Shown one piece after another: positions 5,700 through 24,945 of a stretch of DNA of 43,282 bases. Below the pieces are notes generated by a model. The model was not told the DNA's origin. It worked only from the letters and a program-made list of their open reading frames with translations, and made no database searches. Position numbers and translations under genes: made by a program. Source of the DNA: a virus. Location: the UHGV virus genome UHGV-0369400, one strand, 5' to 3'. The number at the start of each line of letters is the position of its first letter. The first letter of the stretch is position 1.

Positions 5700-6149
5700 T
5701 TATTTGTTGTTGGATACTTTGTTTATGATCGCATTTTGCATTTCTTCCGGATTTTGCATTTTAGGGAAACGGTACACTCCGGTTACAGCACTGATTTGGA
5801 TCGTTCCGTACTTCAAAATCCTTCCCAGCACGCTGTGCGTTAAATTTACAGTGTTAACTTGGTTTAGCGGCATAGTTAAGGACTTTGTCTTTACGATTCC
5901 GGTTCTTCCAAAGACTCTTTTATCAGTCAAGATCAAAATCATTGCTTTAAGCCTTATAATCGGGACAAGCGATAACAGAAAAATGACAAAAAATGTCAAA
6001 TTGGAACTTACACTGCTGCTTGTATTTGTTAAGTCTGTCGCAAACAAAAGAAAAAAGAAAATCGCTACAATGGAAGGCACAACAAACGCGATCCAGTGCG
6101 GCTTGCATTGATATATAGTTTTTTCGTCAGGATTCAATTTCAGCTTCAT
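5700..6149 (-). CDS. Membrane protein with a bacterial PH (bPH_2 / DUF304-like) domain. Typical prophage lysogeny-module gene, possibly superinfection exclusion.
   Basis: Two N-terminal TM helices followed by a PH-like domain (ILTDKRVFGRTGIVKT...). It is linked operonically with the ImmA-like and repressor genes. Confidence 0.5.
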   Translation of the reverse strand: MKLKLNPDEKTIYQCKPHWIAFVVPSIVAIFFFLLFATDLTNTSSSVSSNLTFFVIFLLSLVPIIRLKAMILILTDKRVFGRTGIVKTKSLTMPLNQVNTVNLTHSVLGRILKYGTIQISAVTGVYRFPKMQNPEEMQNAIINKVSNNK

Positions 6150-6583
6150 AATACTCCCCCTACTTTTTTGAATTTTAAGAAATTTTCTGCGTATCCGGTT
6201 AATGCGGATAGCTGCGCTAAAGTAAAACCTGGATGATCCAGCACAACACTGTCCGGTACAAGCAGCTCAACAGCAAAAGTGTTAGCTTCGATCTCTGCAC
6301 GGTTCCGGTGCAAGCTGTCCGGCATCCAGTTAAAAAAGAAGTAATCTTCCTGATGCATTACGGCGTGACCCAGCTCATGGGCCGCAACCATCTTTTGTGT
6401 AGACTTATCCAGATCGCTGTTTATATAAATGAAGCGTTCACCCGCTATGGTTAAACAGCATCCGTATATCTTACCCAAAGGGCCAACCTGTGTATATACT
6501 CCCAGATGATTGGCGAGATCAATGGGGTCATTTGTATGATACATATTTGATAGCTCTGCGGCTGTCCTTTTTGCATCTATCAT
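6146..6583 (-). CDS. immA: ImmA/IrrE-family zinc metallopeptidase (anti-repressor protease).
   Basis: HEXXH motif (AAHELGHAVMH). It lies immediately downstream of the XRE repressor with a 4-nt overlap. Confidence 0.75.
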   Translation of the reverse strand: MIDAKRTAAELSNMYHTNDPIDLANHLGVYTQVGPLGKIYGCCLTIAGERFIYINSDLDKSTQKMVAAHELGHAVMHQEDYFFFNWMPDSLHRNRAEIEANTFAVELLVPDSVVLDHPGFTLAQLSALTGYAENFLKFKKVGGVL

Positions 6584-6594
6584 ATTTACCTCTC

Positions 6595-6978
6595 CTATTT
6601 TTTACGTTGCTTTGCAATAAAAGCAACAGAAATCTTGATCTGGTCGAGCAATAAGTTTATGCTCTCCTGATCTACGGGCTGACCGTCAAAATATAACGGT
6701 GTCACTTCTCCGCTTTTTAACATTTTCTCAAGACGGTTAAACTCATCTTTTAGATCTATTGGTTTTTCTTCTGCAACGGCATCTTCCTCCTCCCCTGTTA
6801 TTAGATAGTCAACAGATACGCCCAAAAAATCGGCAATCTTTTTGAGCTTATCCTGTTTCGGTGTATATCTTCCGGCTTTCCAGTTACTAAGAGTCGATGT
6901 AGAAATTCCGGTTCCCTTACACACGCGGTAAGGTGTTACACCTTTTTCAGAGCATAACTTTTCAAATAAACTATACAT
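6595..6978 (-). CDS. XRE-family HTH repressor (cI-like, 127 aa).
   Basis: HTH_XRE signature (TGISTSTLSNWKAGRYTPKQDKLKKIADFLGVSVDYL) followed by a C-terminal extension. It is divergent from the cro-like gene. Confidence 0.8.
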   Translation of the reverse strand: MYSLFEKLCSEKGVTPYRVCKGTGISTSTLSNWKAGRYTPKQDKLKKIADFLGVSVDYLITGEEEDAVAEEKPIDLKDEFNRLEKMLKSGEVTPLYFDGQPVDQESINLLLDQIKISVAFIAKQRKK

Positions 6979-10635: not shown

Positions 10636-11127
10636 GTGAACGTGAATTTATACCAGATCAACGCAGACATTATGAATGCATTTGAAAATGCTTTGGATCC
10701 AGAGACAGGAGAGATTGTTGATATGGCAGCATATGCCGCTATTGATAACTTACAGTGCGAGCTTAACGAAAAAATAGAAAACATCCTTTTATGGATTAAA
10801 AATTTGCAGTCGGATGCAGAGGCGCTGAAAAAAGAAAAAATGGCCTTTGCAGATCGACAATCAAGAGCGGAAGCGAAAGCCGAAAGCCTTAAAAAGTATG
10901 TCAGTGGGGTGCTGAATGGGCAGAAGTTCCAGACAGAGCGCGTATCAGCATCATGGAGAAAGTCAGAAGCTGTTGAGTTTTCTGGTGATGTCAGCGCCTT
11001 GCCGCAATCCTGCATTAAGATCGCTGATCCGGTAGTGGATAAGACAGCACTTAAGAAGCTCTTGAAAAGTGGCACAGAAGTCAAAGGGGCACGGCTGGTT
11101 GCAAGGCAGAATCTCCAGATTAAGTAG
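10636..11127 (+). CDS. Siphovirus Gp157-family protein.
   Basis: The size (163 aa), the coiled-coil middle section and its position just before the ERF gene are typical of Sipho_Gp157. Confidence 0.5.
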   Translation: MNVNLYQINADIMNAFENALDPETGEIVDMAAYAAIDNLQCELNEKIENILLWIKNLQSDAEALKKEKMAFADRQSRAEAKAESLKKYVSGVLNGQKFQTERVSASWRKSEAVEFSGDVSALPQSCIKIADPVVDKTALKKLLKSGTEVKGARLVARQNLQIK

Positions 11128-11135
11128 GTGAGAGT

Positions 11136-11765
11136 ATGGATGAGAAAAAGAAAAATATTTATGAGACGATAACTGCCGTCATGGCTGAAATCGGAGCGGT
11201 TGGAAAGGATAGCCGAAATGAACAGCAACGATTCATGTATCGCGGTATTGATGCTGTCATGAATGCGATCAATCCGGCGCTGATAAAACACAAATTATTT
11301 GTTGTGCCGGAGATCTTGGAACAGAGACGTGAAGAACGTCTCACGGCAAAGGGCGGAAATCTGATCTACTCCATCTGTACTGTGAAATATACTTTTTATG
11401 CAGAAGATGGATCTTCCGTATCTGCAACGGTGATTGGTGAAGGAATGGACAGCGGGGATAAAGCAACAAACAAGGCGATGTCAATCGCATTTAAATATGC
11501 TTGTTTCCAGGTTTTTTGTATCCCGACAGAAGAAATGAAAGACCCGGACGCAGAGACACCGCCACCGAGTAAGCCAGTGCTTGAAGCGGGACAAGTCAAT
11601 GCACTGTTTGGCGAACTTCAGCGGACTGGGGTAGGCCTTAAAGGAATATTGCAGACATACAATGTGACTGACGTGCATGATCTTAGACTTGAGGATTGGA
11701 AAAAAGCAATGGAAATACTTAATAAAAAGCCAGACAAGGCAGATGAGAGTCTTACGCGGAAGTGA
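11136..11765 (+). CDS. erf: ERF-family single-strand annealing protein (recombinase).
   Basis: Conserved ERF core: QRFMYRGIDAVMNAINPALIKHKLFVVP ... VKYTFYAEDGSSVSATVIGEGMDSGDKATNKAMSIAFKY. Confidence 0.8.
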   Translation: MDEKKKNIYETITAVMAEIGAVGKDSRNEQQRFMYRGIDAVMNAINPALIKHKLFVVPEILEQRREERLTAKGGNLIYSICTVKYTFYAEDGSSVSATVIGEGMDSGDKATNKAMSIAFKYACFQVFCIPTEEMKDPDAETPPPSKPVLEAGQVNALFGELQRTGVGLKGILQTYNVTDVHDLRLEDWKKAMEILNKKPDKADESLTRK

Positions 11766-11773
11766 GGTAGCTT

Positions 11774-12379
11774 ATGGAGTGTAAATGCACATTAACTGAT
11801 GTAACGCGAGACTGGGCAACGGGAAAACTCCATGTAACTTTCGAAGCTGAAGATGATATATCAGGCCAGATTGATGGCATGCGGGATAAAACCCTTAGGT
11901 TGACTGCAAAGCAGTGGCGAGACAAGCGCAGCCTTGACAGCAATTCTTATTACTGGGTATTGCTGTCTAAGCTGGCAGAGGCAGCACATATCTCAAAGAC
12001 AAGAGCGCATAACCTTATGCTTAGAGGATATGGACAGGTAGAGTTGTTTGACGGTTCTCGATACTATGCGCGGATACCTGACACAGAGGAAGCAGAAAAT
12101 GATGTGATTGAAAGAGAAACATTTCATTTAAAACCTACATCACAGGTTGTGGCTGGAAGTGATGGCGTAAGCTATAGAACCTATGTGCTACTTAAAGGAT
12201 CCAGCAATTACGACAGCGCAGAAATGACACACCTTCTGGATGGCCTGATAAGCGAATGTAAGGCGATCGGGGTAGAGACAGCCACACCAGAGGAGTTGGA
12301 ACGGATGAAACAGCTCTATGAGCAAAACAACCAACGTTTTGTTGAAACCACCAAAACGAGTTATGAGCTTAAAACATGA
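11774..12379 (+). CDS. Hypothetical protein (201 aa) in the recombination module.
   Basis: ORF with an RBS. No family recognised. Confidence 0.4.
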   Translation: MECKCTLTDVTRDWATGKLHVTFEAEDDISGQIDGMRDKTLRLTAKQWRDKRSLDSNSYYWVLLSKLAEAAHISKTRAHNLMLRGYGQVELFDGSRYYARIPDTEEAENDVIERETFHLKPTSQVVAGSDGVSYRTYVLLKGSSNYDSAEMTHLLDGLISECKAIGVETATPEELERMKQLYEQNNQRFVETTKTSYELKT

Positions 12380-12663
12380 AAAGACTGTATAGTACTTTAA
12401 CGGATGATCTGGAGCATTGCATCATCACCAGATCAAGCAACGTGGCTATCCATCACGTCTTTAACGGGGCAAATCGGAAGCTGTCGGAGAAGTATGGGTT
12501 TCTGGTTCCGCTCCGTCCGGATTGGCACAATATGACGCCGTACAGTGTCCACATGGATCAGAGGTTTGATGAGAGCCTGAAGCGCAAGGCTCAGAAGTAT
12601 TATGAGACTCACTACGGGAGCCGGGAAGATTTCCGGAGGGAGTTTGGAAAATCATATTTATGA
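12376..12663 (+). CDS. Hypothetical protein with an HNH / His-Me-finger-like motif (95 aa).
   Basis: The HHVFNGANRKL...WHN pattern resembles HNH. Call is weak. The region is GC-rich. Confidence 0.3.
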   Translation: MKRLYSTLTDDLEHCIITRSSNVAIHHVFNGANRKLSEKYGFLVPLRPDWHNMTPYSVHMDQRFDESLKRKAQKYYETHYGSREDFRREFGKSYL

Positions 12664-12690
12664 CATGCAGGCAAGCAGAAAGGAAAAGCT

Positions 12691-13065
12691 ATGGATTTTA
12701 GATTAACATCTGCTGCAACAGCAACTGTATATAATGCGATTGGTGTAGGTAAGGAAAACGCCACGAGCCGCAGGGAATTATGCCGGGTAACTGGATTACC
12801 AGACAGGGCGGTGCGGAAAGCGATTGAGATACTGCGGTATGATCGCCCAATTCTCACAGCAGACAACGGACTGGGATATTATATCCCACGTCCAGACGCA
12901 CAGGGACGGCGAGAAGCGGCCCGATGGATTGAGACACAGGATAGAAGATGCAGAAGCATAAAGACGGCAGAAAGAGGTGCTAAGCGTTTCGCGAGGAACA
13001 TGAAGCCACCTGATAAAGAGAAATATGAGCAGCTATCATTGTTTGGAGGTTGTTGTGATGGGTAA
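12691..13065 (+). CDS. Winged-helix DNA-binding protein (124 aa).
   Basis: HTH-like segment SRRELCRVTGLPDRAVRKAIEIL. Confidence 0.35.
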   Translation: MDFRLTSAATATVYNAIGVGKENATSRRELCRVTGLPDRAVRKAIEILRYDRPILTADNGLGYYIPRPDAQGRREAARWIETQDRRCRSIKTAERGAKRFARNMKPPDKEKYEQLSLFGGCCDG

Positions 13066-13393
13066 GACACAGAGAGAAAAGGGAAAACGCGGAGAGAGGG
13101 AGCTCGCCGGAGTGTTCCGGGAGTACGGATACGATGCCAGAAGAGGGCAACAGTATTGCGGCGCAGCCGGTAATGCTGATGTAATCGGGCTTCCAGGCAT
13201 CCACGTTGAGTGCAAGAGGGTTGAGAAACTCAAGCTTCTGGATGCGGTAGCACAGGCAGTGTATGATGCGCTTCCCGGACTCCTCCCGGCGGTATTCCAC
13301 AGGCGGGATCGCTGCGAATGGCTTGTGACCATGCGGCTTTCCGACTGGATAAAAATTTACCGGGAGTGGGAGGCTGGGAGAAATGAGAGATAG
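13058..13393 (+). CDS. Hjc/RecU-like PD-(D/E)XK Holliday-junction resolvase (111 aa from ATG 13058).
   Basis: GERELAGVFREYGY...ADVIGLPG..IHVECKRVEK matches the E...D...E.K nuclease core of archaeal Hjc-type resolvases. GGAGGT lies 7 nt before the ATG. Confidence 0.5.
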   Translation: MGKTQREKGKRGERELAGVFREYGYDARRGQQYCGAAGNADVIGLPGIHVECKRVEKLKLLDAVAQAVYDALPGLLPAVFHRRDRCEWLVTMRLSDWIKIYREWEAGRNER

Positions 13394-14178: not shown

Positions 14179-14313
14179 ATAAAAAACTTGCGGTCGGTTT
14201 ATATGTCACGATATACTCTTTGACCATTAACCTGGGGCGGGAACCTATCATAGTCCTCCAAAAACCCGCCCCAAAAGGAGGGACCACAAGGAAACACCAA
14301 GAGGAGAAGAAAG

Positions 14314-14838
14314 ATGAAAACGGACAAATTTTACAAAGCCAGGATGGATGGTTTAGCATACGCCCTGGAGATCGTAGAAAAAGGCGGGGTAGAGGCATTG
14401 AAAAAAGAGCTGAAAGTCAGAAATGCTTACTTTATCCCTATGGAGATATCCAGCAAAAAAGCTGAAGAGCTTAGTGAAATGTTGGCGCACAGAATCCTGG
14501 CCACATTCGTGCCTACAGTGATGTTTTCACTTAATCAGGCGTTTGGATTTGGTCGTGATCGGTTGTTAAGATGGAAGGATGCGTTTATCAACCTTTGCGA
14601 TATGATGGACGCCGTGGACCCGTTTGGGTGCCAGTATGAAACCGTAAAGGATTATGCGGAAGAATTACAGCGAAAATACAATATTGAGTTTGATTGGGAC
14701 AGCATAGATGAAGTAATCGGTCTTAATCAGAACCATAAAAAACAGTTATGCGAAATTGATTATGTGATCAGCTTTCTTGAAGAGAAGGGGCAAGCAGAGG
14801 CCGCTGGACTGATCAGGGAGTATGGGAGGAAGAGATGA
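14314..14838 (+). CDS. Hypothetical protein (174 aa).
   Basis: ORF with a GGAGG-like RBS (AAGAGGAGAAGAAAG). Confidence 0.45.
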   Translation: MKTDKFYKARMDGLAYALEIVEKGGVEALKKELKVRNAYFIPMEISSKKAEELSEMLAHRILATFVPTVMFSLNQAFGFGRDRLLRWKDAFINLCDMMDAVDPFGCQYETVKDYAEELQRKYNIEFDWDSIDEVIGLNQNHKKQLCEIDYVISFLEEKGQAEAAGLIREYGRKR

Positions 14839-15098
14839 GCTATTGGAACGAAGAAAACAGTAAAAAGATAATATGCCCGTATTGTGGTGAAGAATATGAA
14901 CCGTCATATGAAGACACTTATATAGGTGATGAACCTGTTGATTGCTATACAGAAGAGACCAATACATATACCTGTGATGTGTGTGGAAAGAAATTTACTA
15001 TGTATGGCTACCAGGATGAATGGAGATACCAGACAGAAACTATTGACGGAGAGGCCACGGAAGAAGAAGTAGAAGAAAGAACTTGGGAAGTAAATTAA
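14835..15098 (+). CDS. Zinc-ribbon protein (87 aa; CPYCGEE ... CDVCGKK).
   Basis: Two CxxC pairs. Start overlaps the upstream stop (ATGA). Confidence 0.45.
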   Translation: MSYWNEENSKKIICPYCGEEYEPSYEDTYIGDEPVDCYTEETNTYTCDVCGKKFTMYGYQDEWRYQTETIDGEATEEEVEERTWEVN

Positions 15099-15133
15099 GA
15101 TTATTGTAATTAAGAACTAGGAGGAAAAATACG

Positions 15134-15622
15134 ATGCCAAATTGGTGTGAAGGAATGTTGAAGATTAGAGGCAAACAAGAGAAGGTACTTGACTTGTTAG
15201 CTGAAAACCTTCAGGTTTGGAAAACAATCATTATCAAAGAGCCTAAATTTGAGATGCGAGAAGGAATTGATAAAGAAGCTATCAAAATAGACAGAGAAGA
15301 CGGGTTGGTGTATGTTGCTAAAACTGCATACATAAAGGGTACACGTAGAAATTTTGTTGAACCAGATGATATTGTAGTATACAAGGATAAAAACGGAAAC
15401 ACCTGTATTGCCATTGAAATTAAAGGAGCTTGGGATATATCAAGTGAGCCATATATCAACTTATCGAAACAATACAATGTTGATATCAAAATTGAAGCAT
15501 TTGAAATGGGCATGGAGTTTAGTAGATATATTCTTATTGAAAAAGGCGAACTTAAAGAAGATAAGAAAATTAAGTATGATGATTATGTGTGGGACTGTGT
15601 GATGCCTAATCTTGGCGGATGA
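15134..15622 (+). CDS. Hypothetical protein (162 aa), AT-rich.
   Basis: AGGAGG RBS. Confidence 0.45.
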   Translation: MPNWCEGMLKIRGKQEKVLDLLAENLQVWKTIIIKEPKFEMREGIDKEAIKIDREDGLVYVAKTAYIKGTRRNFVEPDDIVVYKDKNGNTCIAIEIKGAWDISSEPYINLSKQYNVDIKIEAFEMGMEFSRYILIEKGELKEDKKIKYDDYVWDCVMPNLGG

Positions 15623-15807
15623 TGGCAAAGTTAAGATCAGGAGAAAGGTTAATGGATAGAACATTAAAGGCTGTATATATTTGGATAGTGCTGGCTTTGA
15701 TTTGGATGGGATTAGAGCTGTTACTGTACGGCGAAATCCAGCCGAGGACAGTAGATGATATTATGTGGTCTCTGTTTTTGCCATTTATTTATATGGCGGT
15801 AAATTAA
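15619..15807 (+). CDS. Small membrane protein (62 aa).
   Basis: Two hydrophobic helices. Start overlaps the upstream stop. Confidence 0.35.
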   Translation: MMAKLRSGERLMDRTLKAVYIWIVLALIWMGLELLLYGEIQPRTVDDIMWSLFLPFIYMAVN

Positions 15808-15822
15808 GATTTGGAGGAGAAG

Positions 15823-16254
15823 ATGGGAAGAGAATTAAGACGGGTTCCGATGGAATTTGATTATCCACAAAAAGAGGTGTGGTACGGTTTTTATTTGGGC
15901 ATCCAGACTTGCATGGGAGAGAAGCACTGCTCACAATGCAAAGAAATGGCAAAAATCAAAGGCATACCGATGGCAAGCTATGGCTGCCCAGATTTTGAGG
16001 AATATCTCAAAGAACCATTGGAAAAACTCAAAGAATTACTTGATCCGCCGACTGGCGAAGGGTATCAGCTGTGGGAAACAACATCAGAAGGAAGCCCGTG
16101 TTCTCCAGTCTTTGCATCCGTGGACGGTCTTTGCGAGTGGTGCGAAAAAAACGCAACCACATTCGGATCGTACACCGCAACAAAAGAAGAGTGGAAACAA
16201 ATGCTGACGGAAAATTTTGTCTATCACAAAAAGGGCGGAGTGGTATTTTTATAA
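15823..16254 (+). CDS. Cys-rich hypothetical protein (143 aa from ATG 15823).
   Basis: Preceded by the conserved TTAAGATTTGGAGGA junction motif. Confidence 0.45.
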   Translation: MGRELRRVPMEFDYPQKEVWYGFYLGIQTCMGEKHCSQCKEMAKIKGIPMASYGCPDFEEYLKEPLEKLKELLDPPTGEGYQLWETTSEGSPCSPVFASVDGLCEWCEKNATTFGSYTATKEEWKQMLTENFVYHKKGGVVFL

Positions 16255-16273
16255 TTAAGATTTGGAGGATGCT

Positions 16274-16561
16274 ATGAAAAAGTGGGAAGAGAAAAAAGAA
16301 CCATCCGGCGCAGTGGTTCACACGCTTGTGTTCGGGCATCATGGAGATGATCCCAAAGTCATAGTGGCGTTGTTCAGAGATTCAGATGGAGATTGGTTTA
16401 CAACATCGAATGTACTTGATACATACTGGGACCTGCTGACCGGTAAGGAAATGTGTGAGCATGATGCCAAAATGATGGTAGAGGAAATGGTGTACGATCA
16501 TTTTGCGGATGAAAAGAGGTATTACGAGGAAATTTGCGAAGAGCTTGATATGGAAAATTGA
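16274..16561 (+). CDS. Hypothetical protein (95 aa from ATG 16274).
   Basis: Preceded by the TTAAGATTTGGAGGA junction motif. Confidence 0.45.
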   Translation: MKKWEEKKEPSGAVVHTLVFGHHGDDPKVIVALFRDSDGDWFTTSNVLDTYWDLLTGKEMCEHDAKMMVEEMVYDHFADEKRYYEEICEELDMEN

Positions 16562-16651
16562 TGTTAAGTGCATTGACTGTGGAACTGCCATAAAAACTGA
16601 GTGGGATGTAGCAAAGAAATGTTACAGAACGGTAAAAGAGGGGGATCAGTA

Positions 16652-16876
16652 ATGATGCGATTAACAGAAAAAGATGAGCTGGGTAACTGGTGCCTGAAGG
16701 GTGTCAGGTGGGAGCAATTGCGTACAGGTCAGGTAATCACCAAAGAAGTAGGTGAAACCTCGTATATCTTGAACCGTGGAAAGAACGGAGGACATGCGGA
16801 TCAGGCTGGATTCATCACCATGTGTCTAGCTGTGCTTTGTATGAGAAGAAGGGAACACAATTGCCAAATGATGTAA
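16652..16876 (+). CDS. Hypothetical protein (74 aa).
   Basis: AAAGAGGGGG RBS before ATG 16652. Confidence 0.35.
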   Translation: MMRLTEKDELGNWCLKGVRWEQLRTGQVITKEVGETSYILNRGKNGGHADQAGFITMCLAVLCMRRREHNCQMM

Positions 16877-16906
16877 ACTGAAAGTTAAGATTTGGAGATG
16901 ATGTGA

Positions 16907-17095
16907 ATGGCAATGATTGCATACCAATGCAGCAGGTGCAAGTTACTACAAGATGCCGATGATTATGTATGGTGCGGCGCGGATATAGATCCAAGACCGA
17001 ACCACCGAGAAAAGGGAGATGCAAAGCGGTGTCGCAGTAATTTTGCGCCGCTTGAAAAATCAGAGATATGGCATGAAAAATTTGCTTGGGAGTAA
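16907..17095 (+). CDS. Cys-rich small protein (62 aa).
   Basis: Preceded by TAAACTGAAAGTTAAGATTTGGAG. Confidence 0.4.
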   Translation: MAMIAYQCSRCKLLQDADDYVWCGADIDPRPNHREKGDAKRCRSNFAPLEKSEIWHEKFAWE

Positions 17096-17126
17096 CGTAA
17101 TTTTAAGATTTAGGAGATGAATCACA

Positions 17127-17669
17127 GTGAAAGATATTGTTCGTTTTGACCTTGTAAAGATCAATAGGGGGCGAGAAAAACTTTGCCAATGCACTGCGCC
17201 GTGTTTTGAGGTCGATGAAGAAAATAGAATTGTATCATGCAAAATCTGTGGAGCGATTCTGGATCCGTTTGAAGCTCTTATAAAGCTTGCGGAGCGTCCG
17301 GAAAGGTTGGAGGAAACTCAAAGGAGAATGTTGGAAAAAATAAAAACCTATAGAGAAGAAACGGAAAAAGAGTACAGCAGGATGATAAAAAGCAGAGTAT
17401 TCCGAAAAATGCAGAGTAATTACAATGAAGGTCTTTTTCCTTACTGCCCAGAATGTAAAATGCAGTTTGATCCGGTGAAGATTGACCGATGGGGCAGATG
17501 GAGAACAATGACCGTTGAAGAAAAAATTGAGGCATGTCCACTGGTAAAGAAATTTGAGAATCCAGGGCGGGAAGGAGACGGATGCGCTGGTTTGCGGACG
17601 TGTGGCGGTGAAGGTGAACCAGTGCCAATATGCCAGGAGTGTGAATTGAACTATATTAACTTAAACTGA
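17127..17669 (+). CDS. Multi-CxxC zinc-ribbon protein (180 aa, GTG start).
   Basis: At least four CxxC pairs. Preceded by TTTAAGATTTAGGAG. Confidence 0.45.
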   Translation: MKDIVRFDLVKINRGREKLCQCTAPCFEVDEENRIVSCKICGAILDPFEALIKLAERPERLEETQRRMLEKIKTYREETEKEYSRMIKSRVFRKMQSNYNEGLFPYCPECKMQFDPVKIDRWGRWRTMTVEEKIEACPLVKKFENPGREGDGCAGLRTCGGEGEPVPICQECELNYINLN

Positions 17670-17696
17670 AAGTTAAGATTGAGGTGAAAGTAAATA

Positions 17697-17900
17697 ATGA
17701 AGAGTTTACAGCTATATGTGTGCGAACATTGCGGAACGAAGTACAAAGATAAGAATGAATGTAAAAAATGTGAGGATAGTCATAAGGTTGCGTTGGAAAT
17801 TCATGATATGAGGTTCTATGCTTGCAAAGATAGTGATAACTATCCTAATAAGGTAGAATTGAAAATGGTTGATGGCAAGATGGTTTGGTATCATCGGTAA
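17697..17900 (+). CDS. Zinc-ribbon small protein (67 aa; CEHCG ... CKKCE).
   Basis: Preceded by TTAAACTGAAAGTTAAGATTGAGGTG. Confidence 0.45.
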   Translation: MKSLQLYVCEHCGTKYKDKNECKKCEDSHKVALEIHDMRFYACKDSDNYPNKVELKMVDGKMVWYHR

Positions 17901-17949
17901 ACTGAAATAACCCAAAATTTAATAAGCATACGGAAAGGGAGGTAGTGAT

Positions 17950-18123
17950 ATGGCAAGACCGAAGAAGAAAGCAGAAGATAAAGCCGTCAGACAGAGCGTG
18001 AGCATGGATCCTGTGCAGCTCCGGCAAGTAGTGGCTTACTGCCAGAAGAATGAAAGAACCATAGCGTGGCTGATAAAAAAGGCTGTTGCAGCCTTCCTGG
18101 AGGCAGAGGATAAAGTTGCATAA
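17950..18123 (+). CDS. Ribbon-helix-helix (CopG/Arc-like) DNA-binding protein (57 aa).
   Basis: AAAGGGAGG RBS. Sequence MARPKKKAEDKAVRQSVSMDPVQLRQVVAYCQKNERTIAWLIKKAVAAFL fits the RHH pattern. Not in the ORF track because it is under 60 aa. Confidence 0.5.
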   Translation: MARPKKKAEDKAVRQSVSMDPVQLRQVVAYCQKNERTIAWLIKKAVAAFLEAEDKVA

Positions 18124-18173
18124 AATTAATAACGTTATGCAGTAAAACTGAAATTTAGCGGAGATACAGCCAT

Positions 18174-18494
18174 GTGGAAAAAAACAAACCCGGGCACGGA
18201 ATACGTAATAGCAGCCATGCGCCGGATAGCTGCGGAAAGGGGAAAAGAATGTCATGCTACTACGACAACGGGACAGGTTGGTGTAACGGGCAAAAGAAAG
18301 CTAGAGGTGGCTACTATAGGATCTGCTGGGGATGCTCGAAGCTTGTAACCAAGAAAAAAGAAGAAAAACCAGTAAAAGACAGAGCAAAGAGAAGTTTGTT
18401 AAAAGACTGGGACGAGATTGTAAAACGCCTCAAACGGAGTGGCTATAATTTGTCTACGATATATCTGACAGCAAAAAAAGAAGAAGGAGATTAG
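18174..18494 (+). CDS. Cys-rich hypothetical protein (106 aa; an internal start at 18250 is possible).
   Basis: Preceded by TAAAACTGAAATTTAGCGGAG. Confidence 0.4.
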   Translation: MEKNKPGHGIRNSSHAPDSCGKGKRMSCYYDNGTGWCNGQKKARGGYYRICWGCSKLVTKKKEEKPVKDRAKRSLLKDWDEIVKRLKRSGYNLSTIYLTAKKEEGD

Positions 18495-18809
18495 ATGAGG
18501 ACAAGAGAAGCTAAGTTATCTGACTACAACGTGCCAAAAGAGGACGAATCACAACTTGACCTATATTGCAGGAGTCTGGATCCTGAGATAAAAATCATAC
18601 TATTTGGCTGTGCGATATCAAAAGCGCCAGGGCTTGAAATCCAAACGTATGATAGCTTGGTGACTGGAGACGGATATTATACGCTGATCCGGCGCGGGAG
18701 AGATATTCCGGCAAAGGCAGATGATTTTTATGGGTATAGGCGGAAAGTAAAAGCAGAATTTTACCACAGACTTAAGCTTTTTGGCTTTTGGAAGTATAAA
18801 GGGAGCTAG
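18495..18809 (+). CDS. Hypothetical protein (104 aa).
   Basis: GGAG RBS. Start overlaps the upstream stop. Confidence 0.4.
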   Translation: MRTREAKLSDYNVPKEDESQLDLYCRSLDPEIKIILFGCAISKAPGLEIQTYDSLVTGDGYYTLIRRGRDIPAKADDFYGYRRKVKAEFYHRLKLFGFWKYKGS

Positions 18810-18870
18810 ACAATGACACAAGAAAATAAGTGGTGGACACCCGCCAAGATGATTCCACCACTTACCTAAT

Positions 18871-18911
18871 CTGCTTAGGTCAATTGTATCAGACCTTTGC
18901 AGATTCTGCAA
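18871..18911. promoter_or_regulatory. Imperfect palindrome CTGCTTAGGTC-N10-GACCTTTGCAG, followed by TTGCAG-ATT-CTGCAA. It lies in the native 5' region of the orphan recombinase gene.
   Basis: Dyad symmetry read directly. It could be a recombinase site or an operator. Confidence 0.3.
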
Positions 18912-18929: not shown

Positions 18930-20583
18930 ATAGAGTAAACTTACTGTCAGTTGGAGAGTCGCAGAAGATTCCCTGCTATGAACTTGCCCAGATCGTTTTC
19001 TCATAGTCTACTTCTCCCACAGTGTTTTGTCAAATACCTCCCAGACGCTCCCGGATTGCAAGCTTTTTCCGGATGTCTATACTCGGGATGGTTGCCTGCA
19101 GCTTTTCGATGTATACCCTGTCATTGTCATGACTGTGGAGTAACAGACTCCTCATGTATCCCCTGTTTGGACGCACTGATATCTCCTCGGTTCCCGTTGC
19201 TTCTTCCTGCTTATGGCTCCGCCGGTACTTTACCAGTTCCAGGATCTTTTCTTCTCCGTAATCCTTCACATAGCATCTCAGCTGACACATCGCATCCGCT
19301 CCGGCTTCGCTCCAACCCATCGGACGGGAACTCATCCGGTCGGAATACATATGACTCACATGACCTTCTGCACTGCATCCATAGACATTCTTATCCTGCA
19401 TTCTTCTCACTGCGCTATCCCAGTTGTTCAGCAGGTATTCCTCACAGTCATTCACTGCTTTTTCGTTCGGCGCACATTTCCGGATAGCTTTTATAGTCTT
19501 TACAAACTTTTTCTTCTTGCCCTTATACAGGGCCTTCCACAGCCGTCCTTTGGCTTCCCCTGCCTCATCCAGCATCTGGTTGGCCGCCTTGTTGATATAT
19601 TTCATCATGTGGAACTTATCCAGTACCGGAACTCCCTTTTCAATATATTCCGCCCCTGCTTTGATCCATGCTCCTCCATCTCCACTGATATACACCGCAT
19701 TCAGATACCGGCTCTCGTAGTTCGTGTCGATGTATTCCTGCATCCGTTCAAACAGATGTCTGTTTGCTTCTCCTCCGCTGCAAAGACCTCCCAGGTAGAA
19801 GACATTCTTCAGTTCCTTCCGCCCGTCTTTCTTTTCCTGTCCTTCATACAGATACAACAGCTTCCCGATCATGCTGCCCTTCTTCTCTGTTCCGTTTTTC
19901 TCCTGCTTGTGAATGTGATCCTCGTCTGCCTCAACATAAAGGTATTCCACACACTTTTTCTTCTCCGGCTTCGGGAAGGGCAGTTCTGTCTGGATTCCGT
20001 GTACCTTATCCATGACGGCAGTCTTGCTGATCAACGAATCTTCTCCCAGTACCCTGGCAGCACTGGCATAGCTGGTCTTTACCGCTTCGGCCAGCACCTC
20101 AGCTTCCGCACGGCTGCTCAGTCTTTCATGGGCATCCAGTTCCATCCATTCATCCAGAAGATAATGGCAGGTTCCATCCTTACAGCTTCGGAACAGCGTG
20201 TGGGTAAAGCAAACCGGTCCCACTGTAGTCAGCAGCTGGCGTTCATCATGCCTCTGGATGGTATATTTTTCAGCTCTGGAAATATCCTCACACAGCATAC
20301 GATCCATGTCGCTGTAAAGGGCTGCCATGTGCTCTGCTGCAGCCTTTCTTGCAGCCTCCGCAAGCTGCTTCTCGTACAATTCCATGTCCTTCATCCCGGA
20401 TGAGAGAAAAAGTTCATCTGCTTCTTCCAAATCTTTGTACAGCTTTTCCATTGAATATGCTATAATGTTTTTCATGAGAGTGCCTCCATCGTCTGTATTT
20501 TAGATTCTCGTCAAATCCATTATAACAGAGATGTTGGTACTCTCTTTTTTTCTTTTATTCAACTGACAAAAACTTTACTCTAT
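18930..20583 (-). mobile_element. Insertion sequence (1654 bp) with about 26-bp imperfect terminal inverted repeats (ATAGAGTAAAC... / ...GTTTACTCTAT-like). It is flanked by an 11-bp direct repeat AATTACTATGG (18919-18929 and 20584-20594).
   Basis: Terminal IRs and the target-site duplication were read directly. It carries a single 481-aa transposase ORF. Confidence 0.75.
19030..20475 (-). CDS. DDE transposase (481 aa), tentatively ISLre2 / UPF0236 family.
   Basis: Long, non-repetitive ORF filling the IS. Family assignment is from size and sequence character only. Confidence 0.5.
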   Translation of the reverse strand: MKNIIAYSMEKLYKDLEEADELFLSSGMKDMELYEKQLAEAARKAAAEHMAALYSDMDRMLCEDISRAEKYTIQRHDERQLLTTVGPVCFTHTLFRSCKDGTCHYLLDEWMELDAHERLSSRAEAEVLAEAVKTSYASAARVLGEDSLISKTAVMDKVHGIQTELPFPKPEKKKCVEYLYVEADEDHIHKQEKNGTEKKGSMIGKLLYLYEGQEKKDGRKELKNVFYLGGLCSGGEANRHLFERMQEYIDTNYESRYLNAVYISGDGGAWIKAGAEYIEKGVPVLDKFHMMKYINKAANQMLDEAGEAKGRLWKALYKGKKKKFVKTIKAIRKCAPNEKAVNDCEEYLLNNWDSAVRRMQDKNVYGCSAEGHVSHMYSDRMSSRPMGWSEAGADAMCQLRCYVKDYGEEKILELVKYRRSHKQEEATGTEEISVRPNRGYMRSLLLHSHDNDRVYIEKLQATIPSIDIRKKLAIRERLGGI

Positions 20584-20590
20584 AATTACT

Positions 20591-21628
20591 ATGGGCCAGA
20601 ATATCAAAAGAGAAATCGTTGATAACATCGTTGTTGCAATGTCAATTTACATTTCTGAACCGGGCACACTTGCAATTTTGGACAGTGTAATATCGAGTGA
20701 GCTTACAAAGGTAACCATGCAGGAAATCACATCTCTTCCAGCGGAGTGGAAAACAGATGTAGAAAAAAGAAACCGCTATTTACTGGAACTTTTCAAGATC
20801 AAAAAGCGCGGGCTCAGCCCTGCGACAATCAGCGGATATATCCGATCTGTAAAAAGGTTATCTGACATGATAGGGAAGTCGTTGGACAGTGTAGATACAT
20901 TTGATGTGGAGTGGTATTTGGCACAGTACGAGAAACGCCCAGGAACAAAAAGTGAAAAGGTACAGGACAGAACATATAATAACGAGCGCCGATTCCTTTC
21001 GGCTTTTTACACATGGATGCGAAAATCAAAACTCATTGATGAAAATCCTGTGGAAGCAACGGAAGCGAAAAAGATTGCGCTAAAGCCAATTGATTACTTT
21101 AGCCGGTCGGAGATTATCCAGATGCGTGACGCTTGCCGTACAAAAAGAGAGCGTGCGATCATTGAGGTATTCCGCAGCACCGGAGCGCGGGTTGGAGAAA
21201 TCTCAGAGATCAGAATCGACCAGATCAATACAGAAACGGGAGATATACTCATCAAAGGGGAGAAGGGCGGTAGATACCGCACATTATACCTTGATGATGA
21301 TGCAAGGCACTATTACAATGAATATCTTGAAAGCAGAACGGACAGCAGCCCGTACATGTTTCCACAGACCAGGGCACCATACAATAAAATGAGCGTATGC
21401 GGTTTAAGAGTCATAATTAAAGATATTGGAAAGAGAGCGGATGTGAAAAGCGCGGTATATCCTCATAAAATGAGGAAAACGCTTGGAATGAATTTAAAAA
21501 ACAGAAAGGTTGATATCGGTATCATCCAAGAGATTCTAGGACATGCCAGCCCGGCGGTGACAAGCATGTATTATGCTCAATCAACGCCAAAAACGCTGAG
21601 AGATGTCCGGGAAATGGTACAGATTTAA
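20591..21628 (+). CDS. Orphan tyrosine recombinase (XerC/D-like, 345 aa). The IS insertion has separated it from its native RBS.
   Basis: Catalytic region ...RVGEISEIRIDQI...YRTLYL...HKMRKTLG...ILGHASPAVTSMYYAQ gives the R..H..R..Y signature. Its ATG lies inside the right copy of the IS target-site duplication. The original GAGGGAG RBS is now to the left of the IS, at 18912-18918. Confidence 0.75.
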   Translation: MGQNIKREIVDNIVVAMSIYISEPGTLAILDSVISSELTKVTMQEITSLPAEWKTDVEKRNRYLLELFKIKKRGLSPATISGYIRSVKRLSDMIGKSLDSVDTFDVEWYLAQYEKRPGTKSEKVQDRTYNNERRFLSAFYTWMRKSKLIDENPVEATEAKKIALKPIDYFSRSEIIQMRDACRTKRERAIIEVFRSTGARVGEISEIRIDQINTETGDILIKGEKGGRYRTLYLDDDARHYYNEYLESRTDSSPYMFPQTRAPYNKMSVCGLRVIIKDIGKRADVKSAVYPHKMRKTLGMNLKNRKVDIGIIQEILGHASPAVTSMYYAQSTPKTLRDVREMVQI

Positions 21629-23319: not shown

Positions 23320-24945
23320 ATGAGGCTTACGCCAAAGCGGGAAGCGTTCGCAAAAAATTTCATAGAAAATGGCGGGAACGCAACTGATGCGGCGAGAAAA
23401 GCTGGATATAAGAAGCCTGAAGCGGAAGGATACAGACTGCTGAAAAATGCTGATGTATCAGCCTATATAGCCGAAAAGCAAGCCGAAGTGGATAAACTCA
23501 ACGGTACTGACACTATGTCTCTTGCTGACATCCAGAAGCGCCGCGCAATGATCGCACGGGGGGAAGCAAAGGATTCTTTTGGCTTTGCTCCGGCGTTTTC
23601 AGAGCAGCTAAAGGCTATGGCTGATCTGGAAAAAGCTATAGCTGTAAAGGAAGAAAAAGAAGCGCAGCAGAAGGCAGAAGAGGAAGCCAGAACGGCAAAG
23701 GAATACCACATTGATCTTGATGTGGTGGCGGATGTATTTCACCCGATGATTCGCGACATCCGGCGCGGTATGCATACGGAGTATGTGCTTCCAGGTGGGC
23801 GAGGATCTTCGAAATCGTCTTGTATATCATGCATTATCCCGGAGCTGATAAAAAAACATCCTGATATGCATGCGCTTGTGCTGCGAAAAGTCGGAAACAC
23901 CATAAAAGATTCTGTGTATGCGCAGCTACAATGGGCGATCTCAAAGCTTGGCATTGATGCAGAGTTTAAATTCAAACAATCTCCCTTTGAGATCACATAC
24001 AAGCCTACCGGTCAAAAAATCTATTTTCGAGGCGCAGATGACCCAATTAAGATCAAATCGATTAAACCGAAGTTTGGATATATCGGTATCGTATGGTTCG
24101 AGGAATTAGACCAGTTTGCCGGACCGGAAGAAGTTAGAAGTATCCAGCAGTCTGCTATACGTGGCGGCGACAAAGCATATAAGTTTAAATCATTTAACCC
24201 ACCGAGAAGCAAGATCAACTGGGCCAATAAGTATACTGTAGAGGCAGAGTTTAAAAACGCGAGCGCCGTTGTTATGCGAAGCACATACAAAGATGTCCCT
24301 GATGACTGGCTGGGAGAGGAATTTCTTAACGATGCAGAACATCTAAAAGAGGTCAATCCAAGCGCATATGAAAATGAGTATATGGGTGAAGCGAACGGAA
24401 ACGGCGGCAACGTCTTCGAATTTATCGAAGAGCGCACTATCACAGATGAAGAAATCAAAATCATGGATCGCATATATCAAGGTGTTGACTGGGGATGGTA
24501 CCCAGATAAATATGCTTTTGTAAGGATATATTACGATTCGGCGCGTGAAACCATATATTTCATAGACGAGATTTATGAAAACAAGAAAAAGAACAGCTGG
24601 ACAGCCGCCGAAATCAAACGGCGCAAATATGATGACTATGTTATAACATGCGATAGTGCAGAGCCAAAATCTGTTGAGGATTACAGAGATTCAGGGCTAC
24701 CAGCCAGAGCAGCACATAAAGGACCTGGCAGCATTGAGTACTCAATGAAGTGGTTACAAGGGAAAAAATTTGTCATGGATCCGAACAGAACGCCTAACGC
24801 TTGCAACGAATTTAAAGAGTATGAGTACGAGCGGGATAAGGACGGCAACGTCATAAGCGGATATCCAGACAAAAATAACCATCTCATTGATGCGACCCGT
24901 TACGCTACGGAATCGCTGTGGGAGAGACGGGGGAATAGTGCATAA
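23320..24945 (+). CDS. terL: Terminase: N-terminal small-subunit-like HTH domain (~120 aa) fused to a PBSX/XtmB-type large subunit (ATPase + nuclease).
   Basis: N-terminus MRLTPKREAFAKNFIENGGNATDAARKAGYKKPEAEGYRLLKN matches the small-subunit DNA-binding domain. A Walker A (LPGGRGSSKSS) and the large-subunit core follow. It is one uninterrupted 541-aa ORF. Confidence 0.75.
   Translation: MRLTPKREAFAKNFIENGGNATDAARKAGYKKPEAEGYRLLKNADVSAYIAEKQAEVDKLNGTDTMSLADIQKRRAMIARGEAKDSFGFAPAFSEQLKAMADLEKAIAVKEEKEAQQKAEEEARTAKEYHIDLDVVADVFHPMIRDIRRGMHTEYVLPGGRGSSKSSCISCIIPELIKKHPDMHALVLRKVGNTIKDSVYAQLQWAISKLGIDAEFKFKQSPFEITYKPTGQKIYFRGADDPIKIKSIKPKFGYIGIVWFEELDQFAGPEEVRSIQQSAIRGGDKAYKFKSFNPPRSKINWANKYTVEAEFKNASAVVMRSTYKDVPDDWLGEEFLNDAEHLKEVNPSAYENEYMGEANGNGGNVFEFIEERTITDEEIKIMDRIYQGVDWGWYPDKYAFVRIYYDSARETIYFIDEIYENKKKNSWTAAEIKRRKYDDYVITCDSAEPKSVEDYRDSGLPARAAHKGPGSIEYSMKWLQGKKFVMDPNRTPNACNEFKEYEYERDKDGNVISGYPDKNNHLIDATRYATESLWERRGNSA

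What the first reader, a model, noticed from the sequence alone, without database searches (positions are those of the whole stretch)
15797..18175. Cassette of small zinc-ribbon genes separated by a recurring junction motif TAAACTGAAAGTTAAGATTTGGAGG
At least seven successive gene junctions carry variants of one 20-25-bp element, which combines the stop codon TAA, ACTGAAA(G/T)TTAAGATT and a GGAG-type RBS. They are at 15797, 16250, 16872, 17095, 17658, 17895 and 18140. They separate 60-180-aa ORFs, most with paired CxxC motifs, plus an RHH protein. The conserved junctions suggest that a small-gene unit has been duplicated or shuffled by recombination at these boundaries, as in modular anti-defence or moron arrays. 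Alternatively they are a shared translational or RNA-processing signal.
Basis: seen in the sequence. Interest (0 to 1): 0.55.

Follow-up and report, generated by a model that had tools for sequence, protein, structure and literature searches.

The report
Shared junction linker shuffles phage genes
A temperate phage from the human gut carries a row of small accessory genes joined by one short "stop codon, TTAAGAT, ribosome-binding site" linker, and related phages carry near-identical genes in many different orders with the joints exactly at that linker, which makes it a clear natural case of the long-proposed boundary-sequence route to phage mosaicism.

Summary
In the window, TTAAGAT followed by a Shine-Dalgarno sequence and a start codon occurs at seven gene junctions (15095-17679). 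All copies are on the gene strand. A second sub-motif, (T)AAACTGAAA, holds the upstream stop codon at four junctions. The small proteins are not paralogues, so duplication of a gene unit is rejected. About 35 related loci (human-gut metagenome and virome contigs plus one isolate, Clostridium sp. OF03-18AA) carry the same linker. Inside their arrays, 93 of 110 distinct junctions have the exact core. Genes that are 93-100% identical in nucleotides sit beside different neighbours and in permuted order. Similarity breaks exactly at the core edges. The linker has no promoter, terminator, stable hairpin or Rfam match. My best reading is a portable stop/RBS junction that also serves as the exchange point for cassette shuffling. 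The shuffling is shown directly. The enzymology is inferred: short-homology recombination, perhaps by the phage's Erf/Gam/NinB/RusA set, or less likely by a neighbouring Xer-like recombinase. The closest analogues are T4-type PeSLs and Cluster K start-associated sequences, and it is a member of neither. I rate it a new variant of a known kind, of moderately high interest.

The parts
15091..15133 (+). Linker g1->g2: TAAATTAAGATT, then ATTG, then a degenerate second copy TAATTAAGAA, then CTAGGAGG and the spacer. The stop codon of g1 (TAA 15096-15098) lies inside the core 15095-15101.
15627..15651 (+). Linker g2->g3: AAAGTTAAGATCAGGAGAAAGGTTA (core 15631-15637).
15800..15822 (+). Linker g3->g4: TAAATTAAGATTTGGAGGAGAAG. 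The stop codon of g3 (TAA 15805-15807) lies inside the core 15804-15810.
16251..16273 (+). Linker g4->g5: ATAATTAAGATTTGGAGGATGCT (core 16255-16261; stop TAA 16252-16254).
16553..16572 (+). Degenerate linker after g5: GAAAATTGATGTTAAGTGC. Relatives have GAAAACTGAAAGTTAAGAT at this point.
16874..16906 (+). Full linker g6->g7: TAAACTGAAAGTTAAGATTTGGAGATGATGTGA (core 16885-16891). It offers stops in two frames, TAA 16874 and TGA 16876.
17093..17126 (+). Linker g7->g8: TAACGTAATTTTAAGATTTAGGAGATGAATCACA (core 17103-17109). The start codon is GTG.
17662..17696 (+). Full linker g8->g9: TAAACTGAAAGTTAAGATTGAGGTGAAAGTAAATA (core 17673-17679). The stop codon of g8 (TGA 17667-17669) lies inside the AACTGAAAG part.
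17898..17949 (+). Junction g9->g10 (RHH gene) with the TAAACTGAAA part only: TAAACTGAAAT, then 30 nt, then GGGAGG. It has no TTAAGAT.
18143..18171 (+). Junction g10->g11 with the AAACTGAAA part only: TAAAACTGAAATTTAGCGGAGATACAGCC. It belongs to the AACTGAAA+TTTAGnGGAG junction class seen in relatives.
14835..15098 (+). g1, 87 aa, two CxxC pairs. This is the first gene whose stop codon lies in a linker.
15134..15622 (+). g2, 162 aa, phrog_2715, function unknown.
15652..15807 (+). g3, 51 aa, hydrophobic, phrog_20526. Relatives have it in front of at least 6 different downstream genes.
15823..16254 (+). g4, 143 aa, CxxC pairs, no family match.
16274..16561 (+). g5, 95 aa (family F2). It occurs in 11 loci with 11 different upstream and 8 different downstream neighbours.
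16562..16878 (+). Gene debris made of three pieces: the last 30 codons of a 182-aa gene, the first 38 codons of an F8-family gene (annotated ORF g6, 16652-16876), and the last 41 codons of F34 in another frame.
16907..17095 (+). g7, 62 aa, Cys-rich.
17127..17669 (+). g8, 180 aa, several CxxC motifs, phrog_8538.
17697..17900 (+). g9, 67 aa zinc-ribbon protein (family F0). It occurs in 12 loci with 6 upstream and 5 downstream partners.
17950..18123 (+). g10, 57 aa, weak Arc/RHH matches (E 0.003-0.005). It is flanked on both sides by AAACTGAAAT.
18172..18494 (+). g11. The start is ambiguous: ATG 18172, GTG 18174 or ATG 18249. The conserved part is 18249-18494.
10636..13393 (+). Context: the phage recombination module. 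It comprises Gam-like (10636-11127), Erf SSAP (11136-11765), NinB/Orf (11774-12379) and RusA-like (13025-13393). It is a candidate machinery for short-homology exchange (inferred).
20591..21628 (+). Context: a second, Xer-like tyrosine recombinase. It borders the array here (behind an IS) and in 9 related loci. It is the candidate for the site-specific rival explanation.

Best explanation
The element is a portable gene-junction linker. It has three parts: an optional left part (T)AAACTGAAA(G), an almost invariant core TTAAGAT, and a Shine-Dalgarno sequence 2-3 nt downstream, with the start codon 12-17 nt after the core.

The linker supplies the stop codon of the upstream gene in either of two reading frames. 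It also supplies the ribosome-binding site of the downstream gene. Any gene placed between two linkers is therefore terminated and re-initiated correctly within one long operon.

Because every cassette carries the same short sequence at both ends, recombination within the linker swaps, deletes, inserts and re-orders whole genes cleanly. It can act between co-infecting phages, between phage and prophage, or between copies in one genome.

Shown: the anatomy, the restriction to the accessory-gene array, and the reassortment with joints in the linker. Inferred: the role in coupled translation, and that exchange runs by short-homology annealing or recombination (phage Erf-type SSAP or host functions) rather than by a dedicated site-specific enzyme.
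For: Anatomy:
- The core lies at 7 junctions in the window, always on the gene strand.
- In relatives the core lies on the gene strand almost without exception.
- 93 of 110 distinct junctions inside arrays have the exact core, and several of the rest have a one-base variant.
- Core-to-start distance is 12-17 nt, and 93 of 97 starts are ATG. The upstream stop lies inside the linker in most cases: TAA within the core 23 times, TGA of AACTGAAAG 12 times, and TAA at -4 or -11 15 times.

Shuffling:
- There are 110 distinct flank combinations.
- F2 occurs in 11 loci with 11 different upstream and 8 different downstream neighbours. 136 distinct adjacencies occur among 166 motif junctions. Many pairs of families are found in both relative orders.
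- Pairs that share the left flank diverge at +7 to +9 in 36 of 55 cases. Pairs that share the right flank diverge at -1 in 35 of 73 cases (example alignment).
- Shared genes are 93-100% identical in nucleotides.
- The AACTGAAA-only junction class is also a joint: one gene follows six different upstream genes. AACTGAAA occurs 101 times on the gene strand and 3 times on the other.

Persistence: alleles only 61-77% identical in coding sequence still carry the core.

Not something else:
- No paralogy.
- No promoter or terminator excess.
- No common RNA or DNA fold.
- No Rfam match.

Plausible machinery: Gam, Erf, NinB and RusA are encoded 2-4 kb upstream. Erf-type recombinases recombine short and diverged homology (PMC3945230).
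Against: - The homology is very short. The median exact stretch shared by two unrelated junctions is 9 nt, and only 4% of pairs share 20 nt or more. The minimal efficient pairing segment is 23-27 bp for Red-beta and 31-34 bp for RecA (PMC3945230). Only a subset of linker pairs would be good substrates.
- A 7-nt invariant core with variable arms could equally reflect a factor-binding site or an enzyme's crossover site.
- Related phages with the linker have different replication and recombination modules, so Erf is not universal.
- Translation coupling and any expression effect are untested.
- Most comparison sequences are metagenome assemblies and truncated loci. My gene calls in them are crude, and pair counts are not phylogenetically independent.
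- Non-linker junctions are also fairly mosaic. The upstream family is the same in 37% of locus pairs without the core and in 14% with it.
Confidence: 0.62

Rival explanations
1. The linker is primarily a regulatory signal on the mRNA, or on DNA just upstream of the start codons. It would be an operator for a phage- or host-encoded translational repressor or activator, or a processing site for an endoribonuclease. This would place the whole accessory array under one control, as proposed for the start-associated sequences of Cluster K mycobacteriophages or as T4 RegA/RegB do at early-gene ribosome-binding sites (T4 comparison from my own knowledge). Clean shuffling would then be a by-product of every gene carrying the same signal.
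For: - The core is more conserved than the SD and sits at a fixed distance from the start.
- It is restricted to one gene block, while 29 other genes of the phage use strong SDs without it.
- It persists in alleles 61-77% identical, where the SD and spacer have changed.
- The UUU before GGAGG does not extend pairing with the usual Bacillota 16S 3' tail (inspection; 16S sequence from my own knowledge). The core is therefore not simply a longer SD.
- The SAS precedent is in PMC3203893.
Against: - No candidate binding protein is common to the loci (loci truncated).
- No RNA structure is shared.
- A regulatory role alone does not explain why the upstream stop codon and the last codons of unrelated genes are also part of the conserved sequence.
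- It also does not explain why the gene order is permuted far more than usual.
- This rival is compatible with the main explanation rather than exclusive of it.
Confidence: 0.25
2. The array is an integron-like system. The Xer-like tyrosine recombinase encoded next to the array, or another dedicated enzyme, would catalyse site-specific exchange with TTAAGAT as the 7-bp crossover region.
For: - A second tyrosine recombinase (20591-21628; best NCBIfam match 'XerA / integron integrase' type, E 5e-48) borders or sits within the array in 10 loci.
- Cassettes are promoterless, co-oriented and permuted.
- Similarity often ends exactly at the edges of a 7-nt core, the size of a tyrosine-recombinase overlap region.
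- The homology is too short for efficient general recombination.
Against: - The recombinase scores below every curated cutoff: integron-integrase model 54 bits against 265, and XerA model 164 against 220.
- About half of the loci whose flanks are visible lack it yet have the linker.
- The sequences flanking the core are not inverted repeats, and they vary with the neighbouring gene.
- Intergenic spaces are 15-49 nt with no attC-like hairpin.
- Exchange also occurs at AACTGAAA junctions that lack the core.
Confidence: 0.07
3. The junctions are remnants of tandem duplication of one small zinc-ribbon gene unit whose coding parts have diverged beyond recognition.
For: Several products have paired CxxC motifs and similar sizes.
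Against: - No pairwise similarity exists beyond CxxC (best E 0.045).
- Members match unrelated PHROG families. Others are a membrane peptide, an RHH protein and, in relatives, a PAPS-reductase-domain protein and a resolvase.
- A neutral non-coding junction would not stay identical while the coding sequence diverges completely.
Confidence: 0.02
4. There is nothing special: the motif is a generic A/T-rich SD context, or the variable orders are metagenome mis-assemblies at a short repeat.
For: - The right half of the element is an ordinary GGAGG SD.
- Most comparison loci are short-read assemblies.
Against: - The core is absent from the other SD-bearing genes and is enriched far above shuffles.
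- The repeat (7-26 nt) is shorter than usual final assembly k-mers (my own knowledge).
- Identical arrangements recur in independent samples (multiplicities).
- An isolate genome (Clostridium sp. OF03-18AA, L120) shows the same linkers.
Confidence: 0.03

Closest known systems
PeSL (promoter-early stem-loop) cassettes of T4-type phages (Arbiol et al. 2010, PMC2839356; Comeau et al. 2014, PMC4122927)
   Same: - It is a repeated intergenic motif that runs from the upstream stop codon to the downstream SD and start.
- It is concentrated among small non-essential ORFs.
- Insertions, deletions and replacements between related phages have their endpoints in the motif, so the motif mediates modular shuffling.
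   Different: - PeSLs are about 50 bp or more and consist of a sigma-70 promoter plus a terminator stem-loop, so each cassette is its own transcription unit.
- The linker here is 14-26 nt and has no promoter and no stable hairpin.
- It sits inside one operon of a temperate siphovirus-type phage of a Bacillota host.
- Mini-circles are shown for PeSLs and are untested here.
Start-associated sequences (SAS/ESAS) of Cluster K mycobacteriophages (Pope et al. 2011, PMC3203893)
   Same: - It is an asymmetric short repeat that includes or abuts the SD, in one orientation only.
- It lies just upstream of start codons of non-structural genes from many unrelated families.
- There is a strong ATG preference.
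- The upstream stop codon is sometimes inside the repeat.
- The function is unknown, and a translation role is suspected.
   Different: - The sequence (GGGATAGGAGCCC) and the host phylum differ.
- SAS copies are scattered over half the genome at 11-19 genes. They are not at nearly every junction of one array.
- SAS genes keep their synteny. No role in gene shuffling or order permutation has been described.
- There is no ESAS-like inverted repeat here.
Conserved boundary (linker) sequences of the modular theory of phage evolution (Susskind-Botstein model; lambdoid examples, as summarised in PMC3029335)
   Same: A short sequence is shared at the edges of otherwise unrelated modules, and homologous recombination can join them there. 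The mosaic joints coincide with it.
   Different: [quoted passage not shown] Here one defined linker marks about 85% of the junctions of an array and operates at the level of single small genes, including re-ordering.
Integron gene-cassette arrays
   Same: - The cassettes are promoterless, co-oriented single-gene units of unrelated function in variable order.
- A conserved short sequence marks every cassette boundary.
- A tyrosine recombinase gene lies beside the array in some members.
   Different: - There is no attC hairpin and no IntI-type integrase.
- The boundary sequence doubles as stop and RBS.
- The recombinase is absent from about half of the relatives.
Stoperators of Cluster A mycobacteriophages (L5/Bxb1)
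   Same: Short asymmetric repeats lie in tiny intergenic gaps and are oriented with transcription.
   Different: - Stoperators are repressor-binding sites spread over the whole genome, and they match the operator at the early promoter.
- This motif is confined to 3 kb and has no copy in the immunity region.

Membership tests
PeSL modular-shuffling cassettes (T4-type phages) | Repeated motif at the boundaries of small accessory ORFs; differences between related phages end in the motif | tested here: met
PeSL modular-shuffling cassettes (T4-type phages) | The motif contains a sigma-70-type early promoter | tested here: not met
   promoter-like sites 30 against 27.3 expected, none tied to the linker. 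The linker has no -35/-10 pair.
PeSL modular-shuffling cassettes (T4-type phages) | The motif contains a stable stem-loop terminator or attenuator | tested here: not met
   no common fold, z-scores -2.9 to +1.1, at best a 4-bp AACT/AGTT stem; no terminator excess.
PeSL modular-shuffling cassettes (T4-type phages) | Excised mini-circles formed by exchange between neighbouring motifs | not testable with these tools
   Needs PCR or long reads on phage DNA.
Start-associated sequences (Cluster K mycobacteriophages) | Asymmetric repeat in one orientation, immediately upstream of start codons, containing the SD core | tested here: met
   The geometry differs slightly: the invariant core is 12-17 nt from the start, with the SD between them.
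Start-associated sequences (Cluster K mycobacteriophages) | Consensus 5'-GGGATAGGAGCCC in Cluster K genomes | tested here: not met
   The consensus here is (AAACTGAAAG)TTAAGATTTGGAGG. The host is a Clostridia member.
Start-associated sequences (Cluster K mycobacteriophages) | Associated with genes of many unrelated families in the non-structural part of the genome | tested here: met
Integron | IntI-type integrase adjacent to the array | tested here: not met
   the integron-integrase model TIGR02249 scores 53.7 bits against a cutoff of 265. The recombinase is absent from about half of the related loci.
Integron | attC site (57-141 nt imperfect inverted repeat that folds as single-stranded DNA) after each cassette | tested here: not met
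   Intergenic gaps are 15-49 nt. No hairpin on either strand.
Integron | Promoterless, co-oriented cassettes of unrelated genes in variable order | tested here: met
Stoperator system (Cluster A mycobacteriophages) | The same site also forms the operator at the early lytic promoter, and copies are spread genome-wide | tested here: not met
   All motif copies lie in 15091-18171. There is none in the immunity region at about 6.5-9 kb.
Boundary/linker sequences of the modular theory | A short conserved sequence at module edges that coincides with mosaic joints | tested here: met
Boundary/linker sequences of the modular theory | Joints are produced by homologous recombination within the linker | not testable with these tools
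   Only the lengths of shared sequence can be measured: median 9 nt, and the best partner per junction has a median of 20 nt.

The most novel reading that the evidence does not exclude
A family of human-gut temperate phages runs a dedicated 'plug-and-play' cassette system. A 7-nt invariant core embedded in a stop/RBS linker would be a selected exchange site that lets single accessory genes (possibly counter-defence genes) be excised, captured and re-ordered at high frequency. Exchange would use either very short homology through phage annealing proteins or an as yet unrecognised enzyme. This would be functionally an integron analogue without attC or IntI, and the first well-populated natural example of Susskind-Botstein linkers working gene by gene.
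Probability: 0.3. Interest if true: 0.8.

Novelty: new variant of a known kind. Interest (0 to 1): 0.62.

Why it matters
How phage mosaicism arises is an old question. The boundary-sequence model was largely set aside because such sequences are not found at most joints (PMC3029335).

Here one defined 14-26-nt linker marks about 85% of the junctions of an accessory-gene array. Near-identical genes have been reassorted and even re-ordered at it, in phages from many independent human-gut samples. This gives a concrete, testable system:
- The linker can be mutated.
- Crosses can be scored.
- Circles can be looked for.
- The dependence on Erf-type annealing proteins can be measured at homology lengths below the accepted minimum.

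The linker is also practical. It is a sequence tag for mining variable accessory genes, which are candidate host-takeover or anti-defence genes, from uncultured Clostridia phages. It is also a natural design for order-independent polycistronic expression.

Tried and rejected
- Paralogy of the small proteins: all-vs-all BLASTP found none.
- Known RNA families: one chance-level miRNA hit outside the array.
- Shared RNA or ssDNA structure: none.
- Promoter or terminator content: not above shuffles.
- Cultured-phage relatives: megablast of 14300-18900 and tblastn of g5 against 50,697 phage records found no match.
- Collection scans with 16- and 17-mers: most hits were chance-level single copies. 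In IMG/VR, 40 hits included roughly a dozen that proved to be relatives. In the genome collection, 86 hits included only L120 as a relative.
- Function of cassette proteins: Pfam, PHROGs, NCBIfam and PDB sequence searches gave only weak zinc-ribbon or RHH hits and unknown-function phrogs. The anti-defence idea could therefore not be tested.
- A gene family common to all linker-bearing phages, as a candidate binding partner or enzyme: none found, but the loci are truncated.
- Literature search for the motif strings: no paper contains them.
- Extended anti-SD pairing: considered by inspection and rejected, because UUU rather than AAA precedes GGAGG. The 16S 3' tail is taken from general knowledge and was not checked for this host.
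- Control comparison of neighbour conservation at core and non-core junctions: the difference is in the expected direction (14% against 37%). It is weak evidence because gene calls are crude and the pairs are not independent.

Full report
**Setting**

The window is a temperate phage or prophage. It carries these features:
- a lysogeny integrase (4301-5659, minus strand);
- a long plus-strand operon with Gam-like, Erf, NinB/Orf and RusA-like recombination genes (10636-13393);
- a run of about 13 small genes (14835-18809);
- an ISLre2-family insertion sequence (19030-20475, minus strand);
- a second, Xer-like tyrosine recombinase (20591-21628);
- a PAPS-reductase-like gene, then the terminase and structural genes.

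An independent gene call on the same phage in an ENA human-gut assembly gives the same small genes and starts that I use.

**Checking the observation**

It is composite.
- Sub-motif B is TTAAGAT followed by TT/T, a GGAGG-type SD and a start codon. It occurs at 15095, 15631, 15804, 16255, 16885, 17103 and 17673.
- Sub-motif A is (T)AAACTGAAA(G/T). It occurs at 16874, 17662, 17898 and 18143.

So two more junctions upstream of the reported range belong to the series. The last two reported junctions carry A plus an SD, without TTAAGAT.

The statistics support a real feature.
- TTAAGATT occurs six times in 43 kb. All six are on the plus strand and inside 15095-17680. Shuffles give 2.6 for the whole window on both strands.
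- By my gene calls, 6 of 7 genes inside the array have the core upstream, against 1 of 65 outside. Of those 65, 29 have a strong SD. The core is therefore not the general ribosome-binding context of this phage.
- The repeat finder recovers the linker as the only repeated DNA of the region, as 17-nt and 19-nt exact copies.

**What it is not**

- The proteins are not paralogues. The best all-vs-all hit has E = 0.045 and is a CxxC match. They fall into unrelated PHROGs or none.
- Paired CxxC motifs occur in about half of them, not in most. The RHH assignment of g10 rests on weak matches (E about 0.003-0.005).
- There is no Rfam match.
- There is no shared RNA or single-stranded-DNA fold beyond a 4-bp AACT/AGTT stem.
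- There is no excess of promoter-like or terminator-like sites.
- No copy of the motif lies in the immunity region.

**Relatives**

Exact-pattern scans of IMG/VR and of the metagenome collection, plus one protein-based scan, gave about 35 related loci. One more came from an isolate genome, Clostridium sp. OF03-18AA. One record title names a human-gut metagenome, and the assembly that carries this same phage is listed above as human gut. Most other pattern hits were chance-level single copies. No cultured phage in the INPHARED set is similar.

In the relatives the linker behaves as follows.
- It lies on the gene strand almost without exception.
- Inside the arrays, 93 of 110 distinct junctions have the exact TTAAGAT core. 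Several of the rest have a one-base variant.
- The start codon lies 12-17 nt after the core, and 93 of 97 starts are ATG.
- The stop codon of the upstream gene usually lies inside the linker: TAA within the core 23 times, TGA of AACTGAAAG 12 times, and TAA at -4 or -11 15 times.

The same nucleotides are therefore coding in one frame for some genes, coding in another frame for others, and non-coding for the rest. This points to conservation at the nucleotide level.

**Shuffling**

The 110 distinct junction contexts are combinatorial.
- The 3' end of one gene (…CCAAATGATGTAAACTGAAAG) precedes five different downstream genes. The g3 3' end precedes six.
- The g5 homologue (family F2) occurs in 11 loci with 11 different upstream and 8 different downstream neighbours.
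- Among 166 motif junctions there are 136 different adjacencies. Many family pairs occur in both relative orders, for example F0/F7, F16/F25, F18/F20 and F2/F31.
- The shared genes are 93-100% identical in nucleotides. One family has five identical copies in three upstream and three downstream contexts. The reassortment is therefore recent.

The breakpoints are sharp.
- Pairs that share the left flank diverge at +7 to +9 relative to the core start in 36 of 55 cases.
- Pairs that share the right flank diverge at -1 in 35 of 73 cases.
- In the alignment of the g8 region with its 77%-identical relative, identity begins exactly at the first T of TTAAGAT.
- SD and spacer variants travel with the downstream gene. 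Variants of the left part travel with the upstream gene.
- The junction class AACTGAAA+TTTAGnGGAG lacks the core but is also a joint. One 46-aa gene follows six different upstream genes. AACTGAAA occurs 101 times on the gene strand and 3 times on the other.
- Alleles that are only 61-77% identical in coding sequence still carry the core, in some cases with a completely different SD and spacer.

**Mechanism**

The best-supported reading is a portable junction linker.

It closes the upstream reading frame in two of three frames. It also provides the SD for the next gene at a fixed distance. Any gene bounded by two linkers would then be expressed in any position of the operon. This step is inferred from geometry.

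The shared linker is also the place where whole genes are exchanged, deleted and re-ordered. This step is shown by comparison.

The window itself contains a contrast case. Between g5 and g7 lie fragments of three genes joined away from linkers and out of frame. This is what non-linker deletions leave behind.

How the exchange is catalysed is open.
- The phage encodes an Erf-type annealing protein with Gam, NinB and RusA. Such recombinases work on short and diverged homology (PMC3945230).
- However, the exact sequence shared by two unrelated junctions has a median of 9 nt, and only 4% of pairs share 20 nt or more. Each junction does have some partner with a median of 20 nt.
- The accepted minimal pairing segments are 23-27 bp (Red-beta) and 31-34 bp (RecA) (PMC3945230). 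This is the main weakness of a simple homologous-recombination account.

**Rivals**

A regulatory role of the core remains plausible and is not exclusive. It could be a translational operator or an RNA-processing site, as suspected for start-associated sequences. The core is better conserved than the SD and persists across diverged alleles.

A site-specific, integron-like mechanism is suggested by the neighbouring Xer-like recombinase and by the 7-nt core. Several results argue against it.
- The recombinase is below all curated thresholds, including the integron-integrase model.
- It is missing from about half of the relatives whose flanks are visible.
- The arms around the core are neither symmetric nor constant.
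- There is no attC-like structure.

Duplication, a generic SD and assembly artefact are rejected for the reasons given above. The repeat is shorter than assembly k-mers. Identical arrangements recur in independent samples. An isolate genome shows the same linkers.

**Comparison with known systems**

- In evolutionary role, the nearest system is the PeSL of T4-type phages, where repeated intergenic cassettes mediate modular shuffling (PMC2839356, PMC4122927). PeSLs are promoter-plus-terminator units, and both features were tested here and not met.
- In form, the nearest is the start-associated sequence of Cluster K mycobacteriophages (PMC3203893). The sequence, host, density and behaviour differ, and no shuffling role is known for SAS.
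- Conceptually it fits the short conserved boundary sequences of the modular theory. These were considered rare because they cannot be found at most mosaic joints (PMC3029335).
- The motif strings occur in no paper of the searchable library.

**Verdict**

The shuffling interpretation is supported, the duplication interpretation is rejected, and the function of the cassette genes is unknown. I rate it a new variant of a known kind, linker-mediated modular shuffling, with moderately high interest (0.62).

Noticed in passing
window 16562-16878: Patchwork of gene remnants between g5 and g7. It holds the last 30 codons of a 182-aa gene that is intact in L025, the first 38 codons of an F8-family (about 150 aa) gene, and the last 41 codons of family F34 in a different frame (100% identical to the L139 copy). 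The annotated 74-aa ORF g6 is therefore an out-of-frame fusion that happens to stop at the TAA of the next linker.
   Followed up: yes
window 19030-20475 (-): An ISLre2-family (UPF0236) transposase gene is inserted between the last small gene (g12) and the Xer-like recombinase. The same insertion is present in two ENA contigs of this phage.
   Followed up: partly
window 20591-21628 (+): A second tyrosine recombinase (SAM-like N-domain plus catalytic domain, XerA/XerD-like, below all NCBIfam cutoffs), in addition to the lysogeny integrase at 4301-5659. Homologues border or sit inside the cassette array in 10 related loci and are absent from others. Its role is unknown.
   Followed up: partly
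window 15091-15124; L141 1151-1223; L152 557-629: Linker copies occur close together with no gene between them. In the window, TTAAGAT and TTAAGAA are 15 nt apart. In two relatives, two cores are 66 nt apart. These may be scars of cassette loss.
   Followed up: no
window 18172-18494: The g11 start is ambiguous. ATG 18172 (58-aa ORF, chosen by the ENA gene call) overlaps GTG 18174 (106-aa ORF) in another frame. The part conserved in relatives begins at ATG 18249 (81 aa). This may be two overlapping genes or a shifted frame.
   Followed up: partly
window 17898-17907 and 18143-18153: The RHH gene g10 is flanked on both sides by direct copies of AAACTGAAAT. The same arrangement travels with this gene in 9 loci.
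   Followed up: partly
L014 about 6137-6750, L003 (family F55); L128/L131/L134/L135/L137/L138 (family F9): Cassette positions in relatives can hold larger genes. One is a 204-aa serine recombinase (Resolvase N-terminal domain). Another is a 311-aa PAPS-reductase-domain protein. Both are bounded by the same linkers.
   Followed up: partly
window 23320-24945 (+): The 541-aa terminase matches both a small-subunit domain (Terminase_2, residues 3-118) and the large-subunit ATPase and nuclease domains. This suggests a fused small-large terminase.
   Followed up: no
window 10636-13393 (+): A compact lambda-like recombination set (Gam-like end protection, Erf SSAP, NinB/Orf mediator, RusA-like resolvase) lies directly upstream of the shuffled array.
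   Followed up: partly
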